Positions 18,360 through 62,686 of a stretch of DNA of 64,000 nucleotides are shown one piece after another. The stretch lies in contig JBBQNS010000005.1 of the NCBI GenBank assembly GCA_038330175.1, forward strand, positions 20 through 64,019. The letters run 5' to 3'. This DNA comes from Kiritimatiellia bacterium (GTDB lineage: Bacteria > Verrucomicrobiota > Kiritimatiellia > CAIKKV01 > CAITUY01). Below the pieces are notes generated by a model. That model was not told where the DNA came from. It ran no database searches and worked only from the letters and a program-made list of their open reading frames with translations. The position numbers were made by a program, and so were the translations under genes. Position 1 is the first letter of the stretch; each line of letters opens with the position of its first letter.

Positions 18360-18510
18360 GACTCATGATCGCTCATTCTAGGGCATCTGCCAATCGGGGG
18401 AAGGAGCATAAATGCCTGCGAAGTACCTTAGAAGCCTGCCGAACACAGGCTGTCCGGCAAGGTCATTTACCGGGTAAAACAGGAGTTTACCTTATAGTCG
18501 CTTGAGATTT
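18340..18510. repeat. duplicated junction segment (kinase 3' end - conserved leader - RR 5' end); second copy at 27200-27620
   Basis: near-identical blocks: CTGCCAATCGGGGGA(A/T)GGAGCATAAATGCCTGCGAA (18389-18420 vs 27293-27324), AGGAGTTTACC..ATAG.CG.TTGAG (18481-18506 vs 27591-27616), GGTGGAGGTTGGCAG (18309-18322 vs 27209-27223). Confidence 0.75.
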
Positions 18511-27199: not shown

Positions 27200-27620
27200 C
27201 GGCCAACAGGTGGAGGTTGGCAGTGCAGGGTTATCAGTAATTATCAGGATATCCGCATCTATTCTTGTTTAGTCTTCCTCTTTCCAGAGCCTCTGCCAAT
27301 CGGGGGATGGAGCATAAATGCCTGCGAATTTCCTTAGTCCCTTACGACCTGAATCAATCGAATTATGGTCATGATTTGGGCAAGAAGAGAATTTGAACAG
27401 CCTCCTTCGCCAGTAGGTTACGGCGAGCCGAGGAAGCTCAGTAGAGTAGAGAAGGGGAAATAATTGCGCCTGCGGTGTACTCGCCGCTGGCGCCTTTGCG
27501 TGCTTCGTGTGCTTCTGTTAAATTTCTTCTTCTTAGTTCCGGCTACGCTGGATTAGGAATGCCGCGTAAGGTTATTCGACGTTGAAAATAGGAGTTTACC
27601 CCATAGCCGTTTGAGTTCCT
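27200..27620. repeat. second copy of kinase-3'/leader/RR-5' junction, interrupted by a partial family-B MITE (27440-27525)
   Basis: see 18340-18510; RR start remnant DNPA-LPTSTCWPR (frameshifted) at 27207-27262; kinase C-terminus remnant ...LKRLW with stop codon mutated (TAA->TGG). Confidence 0.7.
27440..27525. repeat. partial, inverted copy of MITE-like repeat family B
   Basis: reverse complement (GAAGCACGCAAAGGCGCCAGCGGCGAGTACACCGCAGGCGCAATTATTT) matches 51711-51770 almost exactly; one terminus only, with 7-bp internal duplication. Confidence 0.6.
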
Positions 27621-50309: not shown

Positions 50310-51665
50310 CTAGGATCCAAATAGGGCGGCGACGGCCTCTGGCGCATGAGTCTCAACCATTTTCCGCGTGATGGCATTTTTTTGGGCAATTTCAGAATAG
50401 AGTAGCGCGCTCGGCCGCGGAACGCGTTCCAGCGCCGGGTCGTCGTGCCGAACCGCAATCAGCCCGAACCGCTTGGAAAAGCCTTCGCGCCATTCAAAAT
50501 TATCGACGAACGACCAGTGATAATATCCGACGACCGGTATGCCTTCACGAATCGCCCGGTGCACTTGTACCAGATGCTCGATGATATATCGTGGCCGCTG
50601 CGAATCAGTGTCGTCTGCGATCCCATTTTCTGTGATGAGGATGGGCTTACCAAAGCGCTCCCATACGGCGCGAATAGTGCGGTAGAGACCCTCAGGGTAA
50701 ATCTGCCAGCCCATCTGCGTCATTTCAACTCCTGGGGGTGCTTTCATATCATCGATGCGGTATTGGTCGCGATAGGTTCGATCATACTTCAGCGACACTC
50801 GCATGTAGTAATTGATGCCGCAATAATCATAGGAACCTCGAATGCCGTCAATGGCCGGCCCGCCATGGATCCAGTGCGGCCGACCGGTCTGAATCGTGTG
50901 GTCCCATCCCAGTGTCGAGGCGCGGCGAGACATGAATGCAGCGAAACGCTCATACCAGCCGGCAAGGCCAGGTGAACGCCAGGGTTCAATCAGCGGGTAG
51001 GCCATGGCGACGCCGACTTTGGTGGACGTGCCATCAGGGGCGAATGGACAACCCTGATGGATGAGACGGTAGGCTCCTGCGTGCGCCCGAAGGTAGGCGC
51101 GCGTCACGGCGCGGTAGGCCCTGAACGAATGGCGCTGCGGAGGAAACCGACCCAGGAAATTGCCCAATATAGCGGGCGCCATGGGTTCATTAAGCGTCAC
51201 CCAGTAATCGGGAAAAGCGCCCAGTTCATCTACCACAAACTTCACGTACCGGAGGAAGCGCTCTACGGTGTCGGGATTCAGCCAGTCATCCCGGTCGGCG
51301 ACCCATTGCGGAAGGACCCAGTGGTGCAGGGTGAGGCAGATCTTGAGGCCATGATTGCGCTGCGATTGGAGAATGCGTCGATATTGCTCAATCGCATCGC
51401 GAGAGAAACAATCCTTTTGCGGTTCGACGCGGGCCCACTCGATGCCGAGGCGAAATCCCTTGTAGCCCAGTTTCGCCATGAGCGCGTGATCCTCCTCGTG
51501 GCGATTCCAGTAATCCATCGCACGCCCGGATACCGTGCCGTCTGCAACAAAGCCCTTCTTCTCCCACGACCACCAATCGGAGTACTCATTGCCCCCCTCC
51601 ACCTGGTGCCCAGAGGACGAGGTTCCCCAAATAAAACTGTCCGGAAATATTAGCTTGTCTGTCAT
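50310..51665 (-). CDS. GH1 beta-glucosidase
   Basis: 451 aa; N-terminal FIWGTSSSGHQVEG, catalytic nucleophile motif ITENG, acid/base TLNEP. Confidence 0.92.
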   Translation of the reverse strand: MTDKLIFPDSFIWGTSSSGHQVEGGNEYSDWWSWEKKGFVADGTVSGRAMDYWNRHEEDHALMAKLGYKGFRLGIEWARVEPQKDCFSRDAIEQYRRILQSQRNHGLKICLTLHHWVLPQWVADRDDWLNPDTVERFLRYVKFVVDELGAFPDYWVTLNEPMAPAILGNFLGRFPPQRHSFRAYRAVTRAYLRAHAGAYRLIHQGCPFAPDGTSTKVGVAMAYPLIEPWRSPGLAGWYERFAAFMSRRASTLGWDHTIQTGRPHWIHGGPAIDGIRGSYDYCGINYYMRVSLKYDRTYRDQYRIDDMKAPPGVEMTQMGWQIYPEGLYRTIRAVWERFGKPILITENGIADDTDSQRPRYIIEHLVQVHRAIREGIPVVGYYHWSFVDNFEWREGFSKRFGLIAVRHDDPALERVPRPSALLYSEIAQKNAITRKMVETHAPEAVAALFGS

Positions 51666-51683
51666 AATGGCTCAATCCGGCAT

Positions 51684-51843
51684 AGCCGAAACCAAAACGA
51701 AGATTTTTGAACAGAAGCACGCAAAGGCCCCAGCGGCGAGTACGCCGTAGCCGTAATTATTTTTGGAATTCAAACACCTGGCATTTTTGCCGAAGGCGTA
51801 AACACTCCATCCTTAGCGGCCTTCGCGTGCTTCTGTTCAAAAC
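51684..51843. repeat. MITE-like repeat family B, full copy (terminal inverted repeats TTTTGAACAGAAGCACGCAAAGG / CCTTCGCGTGCTTCTGTTCAAAA)
   Basis: TIRs at 51705-51727 and 51819-51841; additional copies at 62435-62573 and partial at 27440-27525; all in 5' leaders of minus-strand genes. Confidence 0.65.
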
Positions 51844-51876
51844 TCTTTTCTTGTCCTAATCATGAACATATTTCGA

Positions 51877-53088
51877 TTAATTCAATTCTTTCTCGTCTCG
51901 CACTAACCCTTCGGCGCTGATCTGGTCTTGAGCGGGGTCATGAGCTTTCTGGTCAAATATCGGGCTGGCTTTGAGCAGGGTCTCCAAAATCGTATAGGCC
52001 GCCCGTGGTCGCGCCAGTTGCCGCATACGTTCCTTCATCGTTGCGAGACGCTGCGGCTCGCGCAACAGCACGTCCACCTTGTAGGGCAGTGTGATGACAT
52101 CCGTCGGAGTCACAGCCACGCCCTGCTCAAGGAGGCTGGACGCGTTAATCGCCTCCTGCCCGGGTATGGGATCCAGAAGAACCATCGGCAGGGCACTCGC
52201 CAGGGCTTCTGACAGCGTAAGCCCCCCGGGTTTACCGATCAATATGTCCGAAAGCGCCATCCACTCGTGCATGTTTTCCACATAACCCAAAGCCCGGAAT
52301 TTCAGATGCGATGGCGCCGTTTCCGTAACGCGTTTGACCTCGCGCAGGAGATCGTCGTTCCTTCCACATATCGTGAAGATTTGCGCCGGGGACTGAAGAT
52401 GCATGAGCGCCCGAACGCCTTCAAGACTTGATTCCATGCCGAAGGTTCCCGCGGAAAGCAGAACAACGGGTAAGGCGGGGTCCACCTCGAGTTTCAGCCG
52501 CAGGGCATCCAGATCCATGGGCTGCGAAAACACAGGGTGAATGGGAATTCCTGAAAGCGTGATCCGGTCCTCAGGAAGGCCAAGCTGGTTCAAATAGTAA
52601 GCCGCTTCCTCTGTAGCGACAAAATAGCGCTCAAAATGATGGCACAACCAAAGTGCGTGAACGTGCATATCGGTCACGACAACAGCATGCTTCGTGGAAA
52701 GAAGCTTTTTCCCCAGCATGTAGGAAACCATGTCGGAGGGCAGGAAGTGCGTGCAAATAGTGATGTCTGGTTTTTCGGCACGCAGGAAGTCCAGGAGCGG
52801 TCGCATCTGCAAGCGCTCTGCGGCAACACGAAACTTTTCGCCCTTCCAGGGTGTATCGCTCTTCTCGTACCACCACCCCCATAGCGAGGGCGTCTTGCTG
52901 ACCATTTGCTCGTAGAGCTCCGCATACAAGGCCCTAAATACGGACGTCGTGAATTTCAACACGTCAATATGTTTCACCGAGGCAACGCCGGGCAGTCCCG
53001 CGCAGGCGGCCTCCAGCGCTGCCGCCGCTCGCGTATGTCCGCTGCCGGAACTCGCTGACAAGATCACGATCCTGGAATCTGTATGCAT
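51877..53088 (-). CDS. GT28-family glycosyltransferase (MGDG-synthase/UgtP-like diacylglycerol glycosyltransferase)
   Basis: 403 aa; N-terminal ILSASSGSGHTRAA and C-terminal GKPGGLTLSEA motifs of MGDG synthase family; start overlaps REC-HD-GYP stop. Confidence 0.75.
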   Translation of the reverse strand: MHTDSRIVILSASSGSGHTRAAAALEAACAGLPGVASVKHIDVLKFTTSVFRALYAELYEQMVSKTPSLWGWWYEKSDTPWKGEKFRVAAERLQMRPLLDFLRAEKPDITICTHFLPSDMVSYMLGKKLLSTKHAVVVTDMHVHALWLCHHFERYFVATEEAAYYLNQLGLPEDRITLSGIPIHPVFSQPMDLDALRLKLEVDPALPVVLLSAGTFGMESSLEGVRALMHLQSPAQIFTICGRNDDLLREVKRVTETAPSHLKFRALGYVENMHEWMALSDILIGKPGGLTLSEALASALPMVLLDPIPGQEAINASSLLEQGVAVTPTDVITLPYKVDVLLREPQRLATMKERMRQLARPRAAYTILETLLKASPIFDQKAHDPAQDQISAEGLVRDEKELN

Positions 53089-62358: not shown

Positions 62359-62434
62359 GGGGATCCAGTTGCATGAGAGTTATACGCTTGGAAGGACAGA
62401 ACGACAAGCAGTCCCTATAGACCTAACCCGACTG

Positions 62435-62573
62435 AGCCGAAACTAAGATGAAGATTTTTGAACAACCATTAAGCCCCGGTCGGTTACAGAAGCACGCAAA
62501 GAATGCTGTGCTTACCGCCTTCGGCGGAAAAACAATTTCTCACCTTCGCGTCCTTTGCGTGCTTCTGTTCAAA
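62435..62573. repeat. MITE-like repeat family B, copy with 20-bp insertion in left terminus
   Basis: AGCCGAAACTAAGATGAAGATTTTTGAACAA[..20 bp..]ACAGAAGCACGCAAAG ... CCTTTGCGTGCTTCTGTTCAAA. Confidence 0.6.
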
Positions 62574-62686
62574 TTGCGTTTATTCGCGCAGTGGGATTAG
62601 TTAACCGTAAGCAAACGGCAACCGGAAATGAAACCCACCAAAAGCACGCCCAAAATGATGCGATAGATATTCATATTAGTTCTCCC

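What the first reader, a model, noticed from the sequence alone, without database searches (positions are those of the whole stretch)
51684..51843. MITE-like repeat family B in the 5' leaders of three unrelated minus-strand operons
The ~160-bp element has 23-bp terminal inverted repeats, TTTTGAACAGAAGCACGCAAAGG and its complement. A second copy at 62435-62573 has a 20-bp insertion splitting its left terminus. A partial inverted copy at 27440-27525 lies inside the duplicated che leader. All three lie 40-250 bp upstream of start codons (bgl, the CheBR-kinase fusion, cheW). It is non-coding and palindromic, and it may carry promoter or operator activity as well as being mobile.
Basis: seen in the sequence. 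Interest (0 to 1): 0.55.

Follow-up and report, generated by a model that had tools for sequence, protein, structure and literature searches.

The report
Stop-codon-targeting mosaic mobile repeat family
The three repeats are copies of an abundant, non-coding jumping element of an uncultured lake bacterium (Kiritimatiellia); it inserts at the four bases CTAA, often a gene's stop codon, and it is a new member of a familiar class of selfish intergenic DNA, not a shared promoter.

Summary
The inverted arms (TTGAACAGAAGC + 9-mers CGCRAAG) occur about 172 times in this 3.77-Mb draft genome. The family covers 176 loci, 0.65% of the assembly. The unit that moves is a 147-279-bp composite with three parts:
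- a left module, CCTAA|CCCGGCATAGCCGGAACC;
- a fold-back with a modular core;
- an unrelated right module, ...ATTCGATTGATTCAAGTCGTAAGGAACTAA|.

There are 51 complete copies. Unlinked copies are up to 97.7% identical.

Two paralogous sites and four orthologous sites are empty. The best-conserved empty site has one TTAG where the filled site has TTAG-element-TTAG.

Copy number in the genus ranges from 1 to 172. Orientation relative to genes is random, so nothing supports a promoter or operator role.

No transposase partner was found. The outer ends are not inverted repeats, and CTAA/CTAG variants at the two ends never agree. I therefore favour trans-mobilisation by a hairpin- and tetranucleotide-guided (HUH-type) enzyme over a classical DDE MITE, but with low confidence.

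The arm motif also occurs, patchily, in Verrucomicrobiia, Akkermansiaceae and Pirellulales MAGs.

Verdict: a new member of a known kind, of moderate interest.

The parts
51671..51906 (+). Copy 1, complete composite element (left module, fold-back, right module), between the stop of the GT28 glycosyltransferase gene and the start of the GH1 beta-glucosidase gene
   Evidence: Folds: DNA z = -5.3, RNA z = -7.2.
51671..51704 (+). Copy 1 left module (LE). Degenerate junction CTCAA, hairpin CCGGCATAGCCG, purine-rich extension of the arm. It ends 6 nt from the bgl ATG (51663-51665, minus strand).
   Evidence: nhmmer LE hit at C5:51690-51745, which is window 51671-51726. ORF table.
51705..51727 (+). 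Copy 1 left internal arm, TTTTGAACAGAAGCACGCAAAGG
51728..51819 (+). Copy 1 modular core: GC hairpin (CCAGCGGCGAGTACGCCGTAGCCG) followed by a T-run, then the module TTTTTGGAATTCAAACACCTGGCATTTTTGCCGAAGGCGTAAAC
   Evidence: Module comparison across copies
51820..51842 (+). Copy 1 right internal arm, CCTTCGCGTGCTTCTGTTCAAAA
51843..51906 (+). Copy 1 right module (RE), divergent and ending in CTAA (51903-51906). Its reverse strand encodes the last 9 codons and the stop (51877-51879) of the GT28 gene.
62423..62600 (+). Copy 2: CTAA + LE + fold-back + a non-RE right flank ending in TTAG. It lies 64 nt upstream of the CheB-CheR-kinase gene start (62358). The TTAG holds the stop of a 25-aa ORF.
62465..62487 (+). 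Unique 23-nt insertion splitting the left arm of copy 2
   Evidence: Single genome hit
27334..27556 (-). Copy 3, complete composite in inverted orientation, flanked by TTAG (27334-27337) and TTAG (27553-27556), upstream of the che operon
27401..27433 (+). 33-nt nested insertion (CCTCCTTCGCCAGTAGGTTACGGCGAGCCGAGG) in the RE-side arm of copy 3. The same insertion sits at the same arm position in two other copies (C25, C79).
18428..18431 (+). Paralogous empty site: a single TTAG in the 77%-identical duplicate of the segment that carries copy 3

Best explanation
Family B is a non-autonomous mobile element of an uncultured Kiritimatiellia genus.

It is a 147-279-bp composite with asymmetric ends:
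- A left module, CCCGGCATAGCCGGAACC, which is a hairpin. It follows a flanking CCTAA.
- A right module, ...ATCATGACCATAATTCGATTGATTCAAGTCGTAAGGAA-CTAA. It has a small hairpin 11 nt from an element-borne CTAA or CTAG end.
- A cargo between the two. The cargo is a fold-back with 30-45-nt arms (TTGAACAGAAGC + 9-mers) and a modular hairpin core that itself collects nested palindromes.

The composite inserts at the tetranucleotide CTAA/TTAG. This sequence holds a stop codon on either strand, so tolerated insertions pile up exactly at gene ends and in very short spacers.

I infer that an enzyme encoded elsewhere moves it. That enzyme would read subterminal hairpins plus a tetranucleotide, following HUH single-strand transposase logic as in IS200/IS605-PATE or IS91/Helitron elements. 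A DDE transposase acting on terminal inverted repeats fits less well.

Effects on neighbouring genes are by-products:
- a long hairpin in read-through transcripts;
- a possible terminator;
- replacement of gene 3' ends;
- an AAGGA Shine-Dalgarno-like motif at the right end, in front of downstream start codons.

Shown: dispersal, the boundaries, the CTAA junctions, the empty sites, recent amplification, and the lack of orientation bias.
Inferred: the enzyme class and the effects on expression.
For: Abundance and dispersal:
- 181 arm sites and 71 arm pairs.
- 92 LE ends, 64 RE ends and 51 complete composites.
- 176 loci on 96 contigs.
- Flanks are unrelated beyond the CCTAA and CTAA boundaries.

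The composite moves as one unit:
- Arm polarity is fixed relative to the shell. The LE side reads GC-ACGCAAAG; the RE side reads GC-TCGCGAAG.
- Subfamilies share diagnostic indels, for example about 9 copies of a 172-nt-core class that all carry the same 39-nt nested palindrome.
- Unlinked copies are up to 97.7% identical over their full length.

Empty sites:
- Paralogous: window 18428-18431 against copy 3, and C1:47111-47197 against C72:6246-6455.
- Orthologous: 4 of 4 tested loci are empty in every same-genus genome that keeps the gene pair (14, 3, 5 and 5 genomes; one further genome, G015, carries a different TAATCG palindrome at the C11 site). G001/G007 read ccatATTAGgtatacc where G000 reads TTAG-[element]-TTAG.

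Junctions:
- The left junction is CCTAA(C) in 43 of 49 copies. The right end is CTAA in 40 of 49 and CTAG in 5.
- Variants at the two ends are never concordant (0 of 7), and CTAG tracks the RE subtype. The right tetranucleotide is therefore inherited with the element and is not a duplicated target.

Distribution:
- Copy number is 172 in G000, 153 in G001 and 1-60 in other species of the genus.
- Complete composites also occur in other genera and in one other family of the order.
- The distribution is patchy: the exact arm occurs in 5 of 301 sampled genomes of the phylum.

Other points:
- No conserved ORF. The 12-codon ORF in RE is broken in relatives.
- No Rfam family matches.
Against: - No autonomous copy or partner transposase was found. 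No protein family recurs next to the arms in 97 loci.
- The multi-copy HUH genes of this genome have their own, different flanking repeats. Their copy number does not track element number.
- The LE and RE hairpins are unlike each other, and the LE hairpin starts 2-3 nt after the CTAA. Neither matches IS608-type architecture.
- Element orientation shows no bias against local GC skew (odds ratio 1.06, p = 1). A lagging-strand single-strand mechanism would predict a bias, although skew on short MAG contigs is a weak proxy.
- CTAA at both junctions is also what a 4-bp target duplication would give.
- Many copies are mosaic or truncated. Recombination therefore also shapes the family.
Confidence: 0.6

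Rival explanations
1. Classical MITE derived from a DDE insertion sequence (for example IS5-group, which targets YTAR). It would be cut and pasted by a transposase encoded elsewhere and would create a 4-bp CTAA target-site duplication.
For: - CTAA/TTAG sits at both junctions, and a single copy sits at the empty sites.
- Small size, no coding capacity, high copy number and bursts.
- From my own knowledge: IS5-group elements make 4-bp duplications at CTAG/CTAA-like targets.
Against: - The outer termini inside the CTAA (CCCGGCATAGCC... and ...GTCGTAAGGAA) are not inverted repeats. The only inverted repeats are internal.
- CTAA/CTAG variants at the two ends never match (0 of 7).
- No IS with these ends occurs in the genome or in the fetched loci.
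Confidence: 0.17
2. Insertion by a site-specific recombinase or an IS110-like (DEDD) enzyme that uses CTAA as a short crossover core. A circular intermediate would integrate at CTAA sites.
For: Asymmetric ends without inverted repeats, a short identical core at both junctions, and the absence of strand bias are all compatible.
Against: No linked recombinase gene was found. A 4-nt core is very short for known recombinases.
Confidence: 0.1
3. A functional regulatory module (promoter, operator, leader RNA or small RNA) selected in front of particular operons, as the first reader suggested in addition to mobility.
For: - All three window copies lie upstream of operon starts.
- The RNA fold is strong.
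- The right end carries AAGGA 5-13 nt before 7 downstream start codons.
Against: - Genome-wide the element shows no preference for gene starts or for one orientation.
- One weak promoter-like match was found against 0.4 expected, and no terminator-like match.
- Orthologous operons in relatives lack the element.
- No Rfam match.
Confidence: 0.08
4. Not mobile: copies spread only through segmental duplication and gene conversion.
For: Copy 3 lies in a duplicated leader. Many copies are mosaic.
Against: The duplicate of that leader lacks the element. Flanks of 51 complete copies are unrelated. Orthologous sites are empty.
Confidence: 0.03

Closest known systems
PATEs / IS200-IS605 family non-autonomous derivatives (HUH Y1 transposase TnpA; IS608, ISDra2)
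   Same: Asymmetric ends without terminal inverted repeats. Subterminal hairpins. Insertion next to a specific tetranucleotide. A right-end hairpin about 11 nt from the terminal tetranucleotide.
   Different: The LE and RE hairpins are unrelated in sequence. The LE hairpin begins 2-3 nt after the target. No tnpA/tnpB-bearing parent was found. No strand bias was detected.
IS91/ISCR and Helitron-type rolling-circle elements (HUH Y2)
   Same: A 3' end reading CTRR (CTAA/CTAG) preceded by a short hairpin about 11 nt upstream. Unlike ends. Tetranucleotide-specific insertion. Abundant non-autonomous derivatives.
   Different: No Rep/helicase or IS91-type gene is linked. The 5' end does not match known consensus ends. 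The resemblance is recalled from my own knowledge and was not tested.
Correia elements (CREE/NEMIS) of Neisseria and ERIC of enterobacteria
   Same: Intergenic palindromic repeats of 100-270 bp in about 100-200 copies. They are co-transcribed with neighbours as long hairpins, lie close to gene starts and ends, and show insertion polymorphism between species.
   Different: Correia elements have true terminal inverted repeats and a TA duplication. Family B has internal arms, an asymmetric shell and CTAA junctions.
Mosaic intergenic repeats: E. coli BIMEs, neisserial NIMEs, pneumococcal BOX
   Same: Built from a limited set of modules that recombine (LE, arms, several core modules, RE, alternative flanks). 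Other small palindromes nest inside.
   Different: No GTAG/CGTC-tagged REP unit. The RAYTs of this genome flank other repeats. Here the whole composite demonstrably inserts as a unit.

Membership tests
MITE (classical, DDE-derived) | Terminal inverted repeats at the very ends of the inserted unit | tested here: not met
   The ends defined by multi-copy conservation and by empty sites are CCCGGCATAGCC... and ...GTCGTAAGGAA. They are not complementary. The inverted repeats are internal.
MITE (classical, DDE-derived) | Target-site duplication of fixed length | tested here: inconclusive
   CTAA is at both junctions and occurs once at empty sites. However, CTAA/CTAG variants at the two ends are never concordant (0 of 7).
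MITE (classical, DDE-derived) | Small, non-coding, multi-copy, with insertion polymorphism | tested here: met
   147-279 bp, 51 complete copies and 176 loci. The mini-ORF is not conserved. 4 of 4 orthologous sites are empty.
MITE (classical, DDE-derived) | Autonomous parent IS with the same ends | tested here: not met
   None in the genome. LE-RE pairs about 1 kb apart enclose host genes or a group II intron fragment. None in 97 foreign loci.
IS200/IS605-derived PATE | Similar subterminal hairpins at both ends, recognised by one TnpA | tested here: not met
   LE hairpin is CCGGC-ATA-GCCGG. RE hairpin is (N)CGAT-TGATTCAA-GTCG(N). The sequences are unrelated.
IS200/IS605-derived PATE | Insertion 3' of a fixed tetra- or pentanucleotide, without duplication | tested here: inconclusive
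   The left flank is (C)CTAA in 43 of 49 copies, and the right CTAR is inherited with the RE subtype. This fits, but a duplication cannot be excluded.
IS200/IS605-derived PATE | Orientation bias relative to replication | tested here: inconclusive
   No association with local GC skew (odds ratio 1.06, p = 1). Skew on short MAG contigs is a weak proxy for replication direction.
IS200/IS605-derived PATE | Cognate tnpA/tnpB element with the same ends | tested here: not met
   The Y1 genes of the genus are flanked by other repeats.
REP/REPIN-RAYT | 20-40-nt palindromic unit with a conserved 5' tetranucleotide (GTAG/CGTC), paired in REPINs, and a flanked RAYT gene | tested here: not met
   The arms are not palindromic themselves. 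The RAYT at C125 is flanked by GTAG REPs. The long HUH genes are flanked by GGGACAGGCTAATAG units, not by family B.
Rfam structured RNA family | Match to a curated covariance model | tested here: not met
   No hit at gathering score in the window. The only hit in E-value mode is a spurious plant miRNA-precursor hairpin at 23 bits against a gathering score of 95.

The most novel reading that the evidence does not exclude
Family B and its relatives may represent an undescribed type of hairpin-guided, tetranucleotide-specific (HUH- or Helitron-like) non-autonomous element.

It would be adapted to land in stop codons (CTAA/TTAG). It would restore the stop for the upstream gene and bring a Shine-Dalgarno motif (AAGGA) for the downstream gene, so that it can colonise tightly packed operons almost harmlessly.

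Its fold-back cargo (TTGAACAGAAGC + CGCRAAG 9-mers) is shared by distant PVC lineages (Kiritimatiellia, Verrucomicrobiia, Akkermansiaceae, Pirellulales). That sharing would then mark horizontal spread by a still unidentified enzyme common to these bacteria.
Probability: 0.15. Interest if true: 0.6.

Novelty: new member of a known kind. Interest (0 to 1): 0.36.

Why it matters
**Annotation.** The family accounts for 0.65% of this assembly and, through fragments that end in the element, for some of its contig breaks. It creates spurious small ORFs, rewrites the 3' ends of real genes (GT28 here) and sits within a few bases of many start codons. It should therefore be masked and taken into account when operons and leaders of these lake Kiritimatiellia are interpreted.

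**Biology.** It is a clean example of how a tetranucleotide target that doubles as a stop codon channels insertions to gene boundaries. Its asymmetric ends point to a mobilising enzyme that has not been identified. The patchy presence of the same 20-nt arm in several PVC classes is a usable marker for horizontal DNA flow among co-occurring freshwater bacteria.

Tried and rejected
- **Mini-ORF in the right module (MTIIRLIQVVRN).** Rejected. It is interrupted or lacks an ATG in relatives.
- **Shared promoter.** Rejected. There is no orientation or position bias, and the single weak match is no more than shuffles give.
- **Autonomous parent among LE-RE pairs about 1 kb apart.** These enclose host genes or a group II intron fragment.
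- **Long repeats in the genome as candidate IS.** The multi-copy 345-aa HUH gene (C74, C119, C71) is flanked by GGGACAGGCTAATAG units, not by family B. RAYT C125 is flanked by GTAG REPs and C138 by neither. The small Y1 genes of relatives are flanked by other REPs. HUH copy number does not follow element number.
- **Protein family recurrently next to the arms in 97 foreign loci.** None.
- **Viral contigs as a vector.** Only single arm-like matches inside coding sequence.
- **Population-level empty allele via an identical bgl protein.** The one Logan contig breaks inside the element.
- **bgl orthologues.** No synteny, so no exact empty site, but no element either.
- **GC-skew strand bias.** None.
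- **Literature.** No paper contains the arm sequence, and no description of such repeats in these taxa was found.
- **Technical.** A fuzzy-regex census timed out and was replaced by BLAST and nhmmer.

Full report
**Observation**

In copy 1, the repeat finder reports arms at 51700-51729 and 51818-51847, 30 nt long and 93% complementary. The 23-mer TTTTGAACAGAAGCACGCAAAGG is at 51705-51727, and its partner at 51820-51842 has one mismatch.

Copy 2 carries a 23-nt insertion in its left arm at 62465-62487. That insertion occurs nowhere else in the genome.

The "partial" copy 3 is in fact a complete inverted copy at 27334-27556. One of its arms is split by a 33-nt nested insertion at 27401-27433.

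The element folds much better than shuffled sequence. Copy 1 gives z = -5.3 as DNA and z = -7.2 as RNA on the strand of the surrounding minus-strand genes. No Rfam family matches.

**Census**

The whole assembly is 3.77 Mb in 205 contigs, 53% G+C, and the window is C5:20-64019.
- The arm 20-mer with up to 3 mismatches occurs 181 times and forms 71 inward-facing pairs 86-223 bp long.
- With at most 1 mismatch the pattern hits 172 sites, and the reversed control pattern hits none.
- BLAST with all complete copies merges into 176 loci covering 24.7 kb. This is 0.65% of the assembly, on 96 contigs.
- Several contigs begin or end inside the element.

**True anatomy**

When all arm pairs are oriented and their flanks aligned, conservation continues outside the arms and is asymmetric.
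- On one side it reads (C)CTAA-CCCGGCWTAGCCGGAACCAAGAGGAAGATT. I call this LE. It contains the hairpin CCGGC-ATA-GCCGG.
- On the other side it reads ACTCTTTTCTTGTCCAAATCATGACCATAATTCGATTGATTCAAGTCGTAAGGRA-CTAA. I call this RE. It has a small hairpin 11 nt from the end.
- Beyond these points the flanks are unrelated.

Profile searches find 92 LE ends, 64 RE ends and 51 complete LE-fold-back-RE composites of 147-279 bp.

The arms extend outwards into a purine-rich stretch, giving about 40-nt imperfect inverted repeats. These repeats are internal. The outer termini are not complementary to each other.

The core is modular:
- a GC hairpin with a T-run;
- a 49-nt module;
- a 53-nt alternative module;
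- a 25-nt module;
- nested small palindromes.

One nested element is a 39-nt palindrome found at 10 sites, always in a CGCCG^AAGGCG hairpin loop of this family. Another is a 33-nt insert found at the same arm position in three copies.

Many loci are truncated or mosaic. LE also borders a different repeat (the TAATCGTAATC family). One copy (C119:1061-1208) has LE and RE around that other cargo. Some fold-backs have other flank types, as copy 2 does.

**The composite is what multiplies**

- Arm polarity is fixed relative to LE and RE. The LE-side arm continues ACGCAAAG in 22 copies (A at its first position in most copies), and the RE-side arm continues TCGCGAAG or TCACGAAG in 32 copies.
- Size classes share diagnostic indels. 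For example, about nine copies with a 172-nt inner part all carry the same nested palindrome.
- Unlinked copies reach 97.7% identity over their full length.

**Insertion and target**

Two paralogous comparisons give empty sites.
- The 77%-identical duplicate of the che leader has a single TTAG at 18428-18431, where copy 3 is bracketed by TTAG...TTAG.
- C1:47111-47197 has one TTAG where C72:6246-6455 has TTAG-element-TTAG.

I then joined the flanks of four complete copies and searched the 16 other species of the genus. Every genome that keeps the gene pair lacks the element: 14 genomes for C108:3232, three for C11:24298, five for C3:5091 and five for C31:26593. One further genome, G015, carries a different palindromic repeat at the C11:24298 spot.

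At the best-conserved site, G001 and G007 read ccatATTAGgtatacc. G000 reads ccatATTAG-[element]-TTAGgtatacc.

The bgl orthologues of three species also lack any family B sequence upstream.

Across 49 scorable composites the left junction is CCTAA(C) in 43. The right end is CTAA in 40 and CTAG in 5.

CTAA contains TAA, and its complement TTAG contains TAG. In line with this, the element ends frequently overlap or abut stop codons, at distances of -18 to +8 nt in many copies. In the window, two examples are clear:
- The RE of copy 1 supplies the last nine codons and the stop of the GT28 gene.
- The TTAG of copy 2 holds the stop of a 25-aa ORF.

**No evidence for a regulatory role**

- Among the 51 composites, LE faces a gene end 28 times and a gene start 21 times.
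- RE faces an end 26 times and a start 23 times.
- In spacers between tandem genes the element is co-oriented 17 times and anti-oriented 15 times.
- The consensus scan finds one weak promoter-like site (0.4 expected from shuffles) and no terminator-like site in copy 1.
- The 12-codon ORF in RE is not conserved in relatives.

One possible side effect deserves a test. RE ends in GTAAGGAACTAA, which places AAGGA 5-13 nt before the start codon of seven downstream genes. At the C108 site the ancestral arrangement was a stop and a start 1 nt apart.

**Distribution**

- Arm counts are 172 in G000, 153 in G001, 1-60 in the other 15 species of the genus, 0-17 in other genera of the family and 0-3 in other families of the order.
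- Complete LE-fold-back-RE composites occur in other species, other genera and one other family of the order.
- In an even sample of 301 genomes of the phylum, exact arms occur only in the three sampled genomes of the genus, once in G030 and eight times in G075.
- The public-genome scan names the hosts. They are mostly lake MAGs labelled Kiritimatiellia/Kiritimatiellae, "Lentisphaerae" or PVC group.
- The same scan also shows genuine arm pairs, without the LE/RE shell, in several other MAGs. These are a Verrucomicrobiia MAG (on a 1.7-Mb contig), an Akkermansiaceae MAG (tandem 131-nt units), Pirellulales and Planctomycetaceae MAGs, and a bin labelled Acidobacteriota.
- Single hits in archaea, Firmicutes and similar groups are at the level expected by chance for this pattern in 596 Gb.
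- This patchiness fits horizontal spread better than ancient conservation.
- Viral contigs hold only chance matches inside genes.

**Mechanism**

No partner enzyme was found.
- LE-RE pairs about 1 kb apart enclose host genes or a group II intron reverse-transcriptase fragment.
- No protein family recurs beside the arms in 97 loci.
- The genome has several HUH (Y1) genes. One is a multi-copy 345-aa type bracketed by GGGACAGGCTAATAG units, in this genome and in three other species. Another is a classic RAYT flanked by GTAG REPs, and a third is a 371-aa type.
- None of these is flanked by family B. The only link is that the 345-aa type's own repeats also contain CTAA.

Three features favour a hairpin- and tetranucleotide-guided enzyme (IS200/IS605-PATE or IS91/Helitron logic) over a classical DDE MITE:
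- the unlike ends;
- the subterminal hairpins;
- a right-hand CTAR that is inherited with the RE subtype and never matches variants on the left (0 of 7).

Three features count against that view:
- The two hairpins are dissimilar.
- The LE hairpin starts only 2-3 nt after the CTAA.
- Orientation is independent of local GC skew (odds ratio 1.06, p = 1).

My estimates are as follows.

| Claim | Probability |
|---|---|
| It is a mobile, non-autonomous element | about 0.8 |
| It is moved by an HUH-type enzyme | about 0.35 |
| It is a DDE element with a 4-bp duplication | about 0.17 |
| It is moved by a recombinase or IS110-like enzyme | about 0.1 |

**Comparison with known elements, and novelty**

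In behaviour it resembles Correia and ERIC elements: intergenic, co-transcribed hairpins at gene boundaries. In construction it resembles mosaic repeats such as BIME, NIME and BOX.

It fails the strict definitions of MITE (no terminal inverted repeats, no parent IS), of REP/REPIN (no tagged palindromic unit, no flanked RAYT) and of IS200/IS605 PATEs (unlike hairpins, no parent).

No paper in the library contains the arm sequence.

My independent census agrees with it.

I rate the finding a new member of a known kind, with moderate interest. The stop-codon target and the unidentified enzyme are the parts worth following.

**Limits**

Transcription, circular intermediates and within-population polymorphism are therefore untested.
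- Gene calls for the context statistics are simple ORF calls.
- The assembly is a fragmented MAG, in which insertion sequences are often missing.

Noticed in passing
genome contigs C74:312-1325, C119:3-836, C71:16111-16644 (not in the window); relatives L121-L123: A multi-copy 345-aa HUH (Y1, RAYT-like) gene, 90-93% identical between copies. It is bracketed by inverted GGGACAGGCTAATAG units and, upstream in C74, by a tandem array of about 7 such units. The same bracket is present in three other species. It looks like an IS-like unit with its own CTAA-containing repeats.
   Followed up: partly
flanks of many family B copies, e.g. C72:6180-6245, C39:18590-18620, C114, C24:25440-25500: Arrays of 9-mers of the type TAGGCTGTTAG / ACTATTAGG (complement CCTAATAGT / CTAACAGCC). 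Each unit contains TTAG/CTAA, the insertion target. Several elements sit directly against such arrays.
   Followed up: no
window 51877-51906 (minus strand): The last nine codons (LVRDEKELN) and the stop of the GT28 (MGDG-synthase-like) gene are encoded by the right module of copy 1. The insertion has therefore replaced the native C-terminus.
   Followed up: partly
genome contig C79:284-1280: A family B copy is interrupted by about 800 bp that encode a fragment of a group II intron-type reverse transcriptase (VDRVTFEQIEQ... motif region) on the opposite strand. This fits intron homing into a terminator-like hairpin.
   Followed up: no
L067 5190-5810 and L029 1-330 (Akkermansiaceae MAG CAISTY010000081.1); L043 (Lac Pavin Verrucomicrobia MAG): The same arm motif occurs as head-to-tail tandem arrays of a 131-nt unit (fold-back plus a 66-nt spacer), at least four units long. 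This organisation was not seen in the window's genome.
   Followed up: no
L138 (G015:C21:9360-9500), C119:1087-1160, C6:36330-36417, C139, C176: A second palindromic repeat built from TAATCG/TAATCT hexamers (arms ...ATCATAATCGTAATCTTAATC / GATTAAGATTACGATTA). It sits in G015 at the very intergenic spot that holds family B in G000. In G000 it can replace the fold-back between LE and RE.
   Followed up: no
genome contig C125:393-899 and flanks: A classic 168-aa RAYT flanked on both sides by arrays of GTAG-tagged REPs (GTGTAGCTGCGCGTGTCCCCACGCGCAGG). This is a separate REP-RAYT system in the same genome.
   Followed up: no
window 62423-62445 versus 62578-62600: In copy 2 the sequence next to the right-hand TTAG, read in reverse complement (CTAATCCCACTGCGCGAA), resembles this copy's own left module (CTAACCCGACTGAGCCGAA) at 14 of 18 positions. 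This copy may therefore have LE-like ends on both sides.
   Followed up: no
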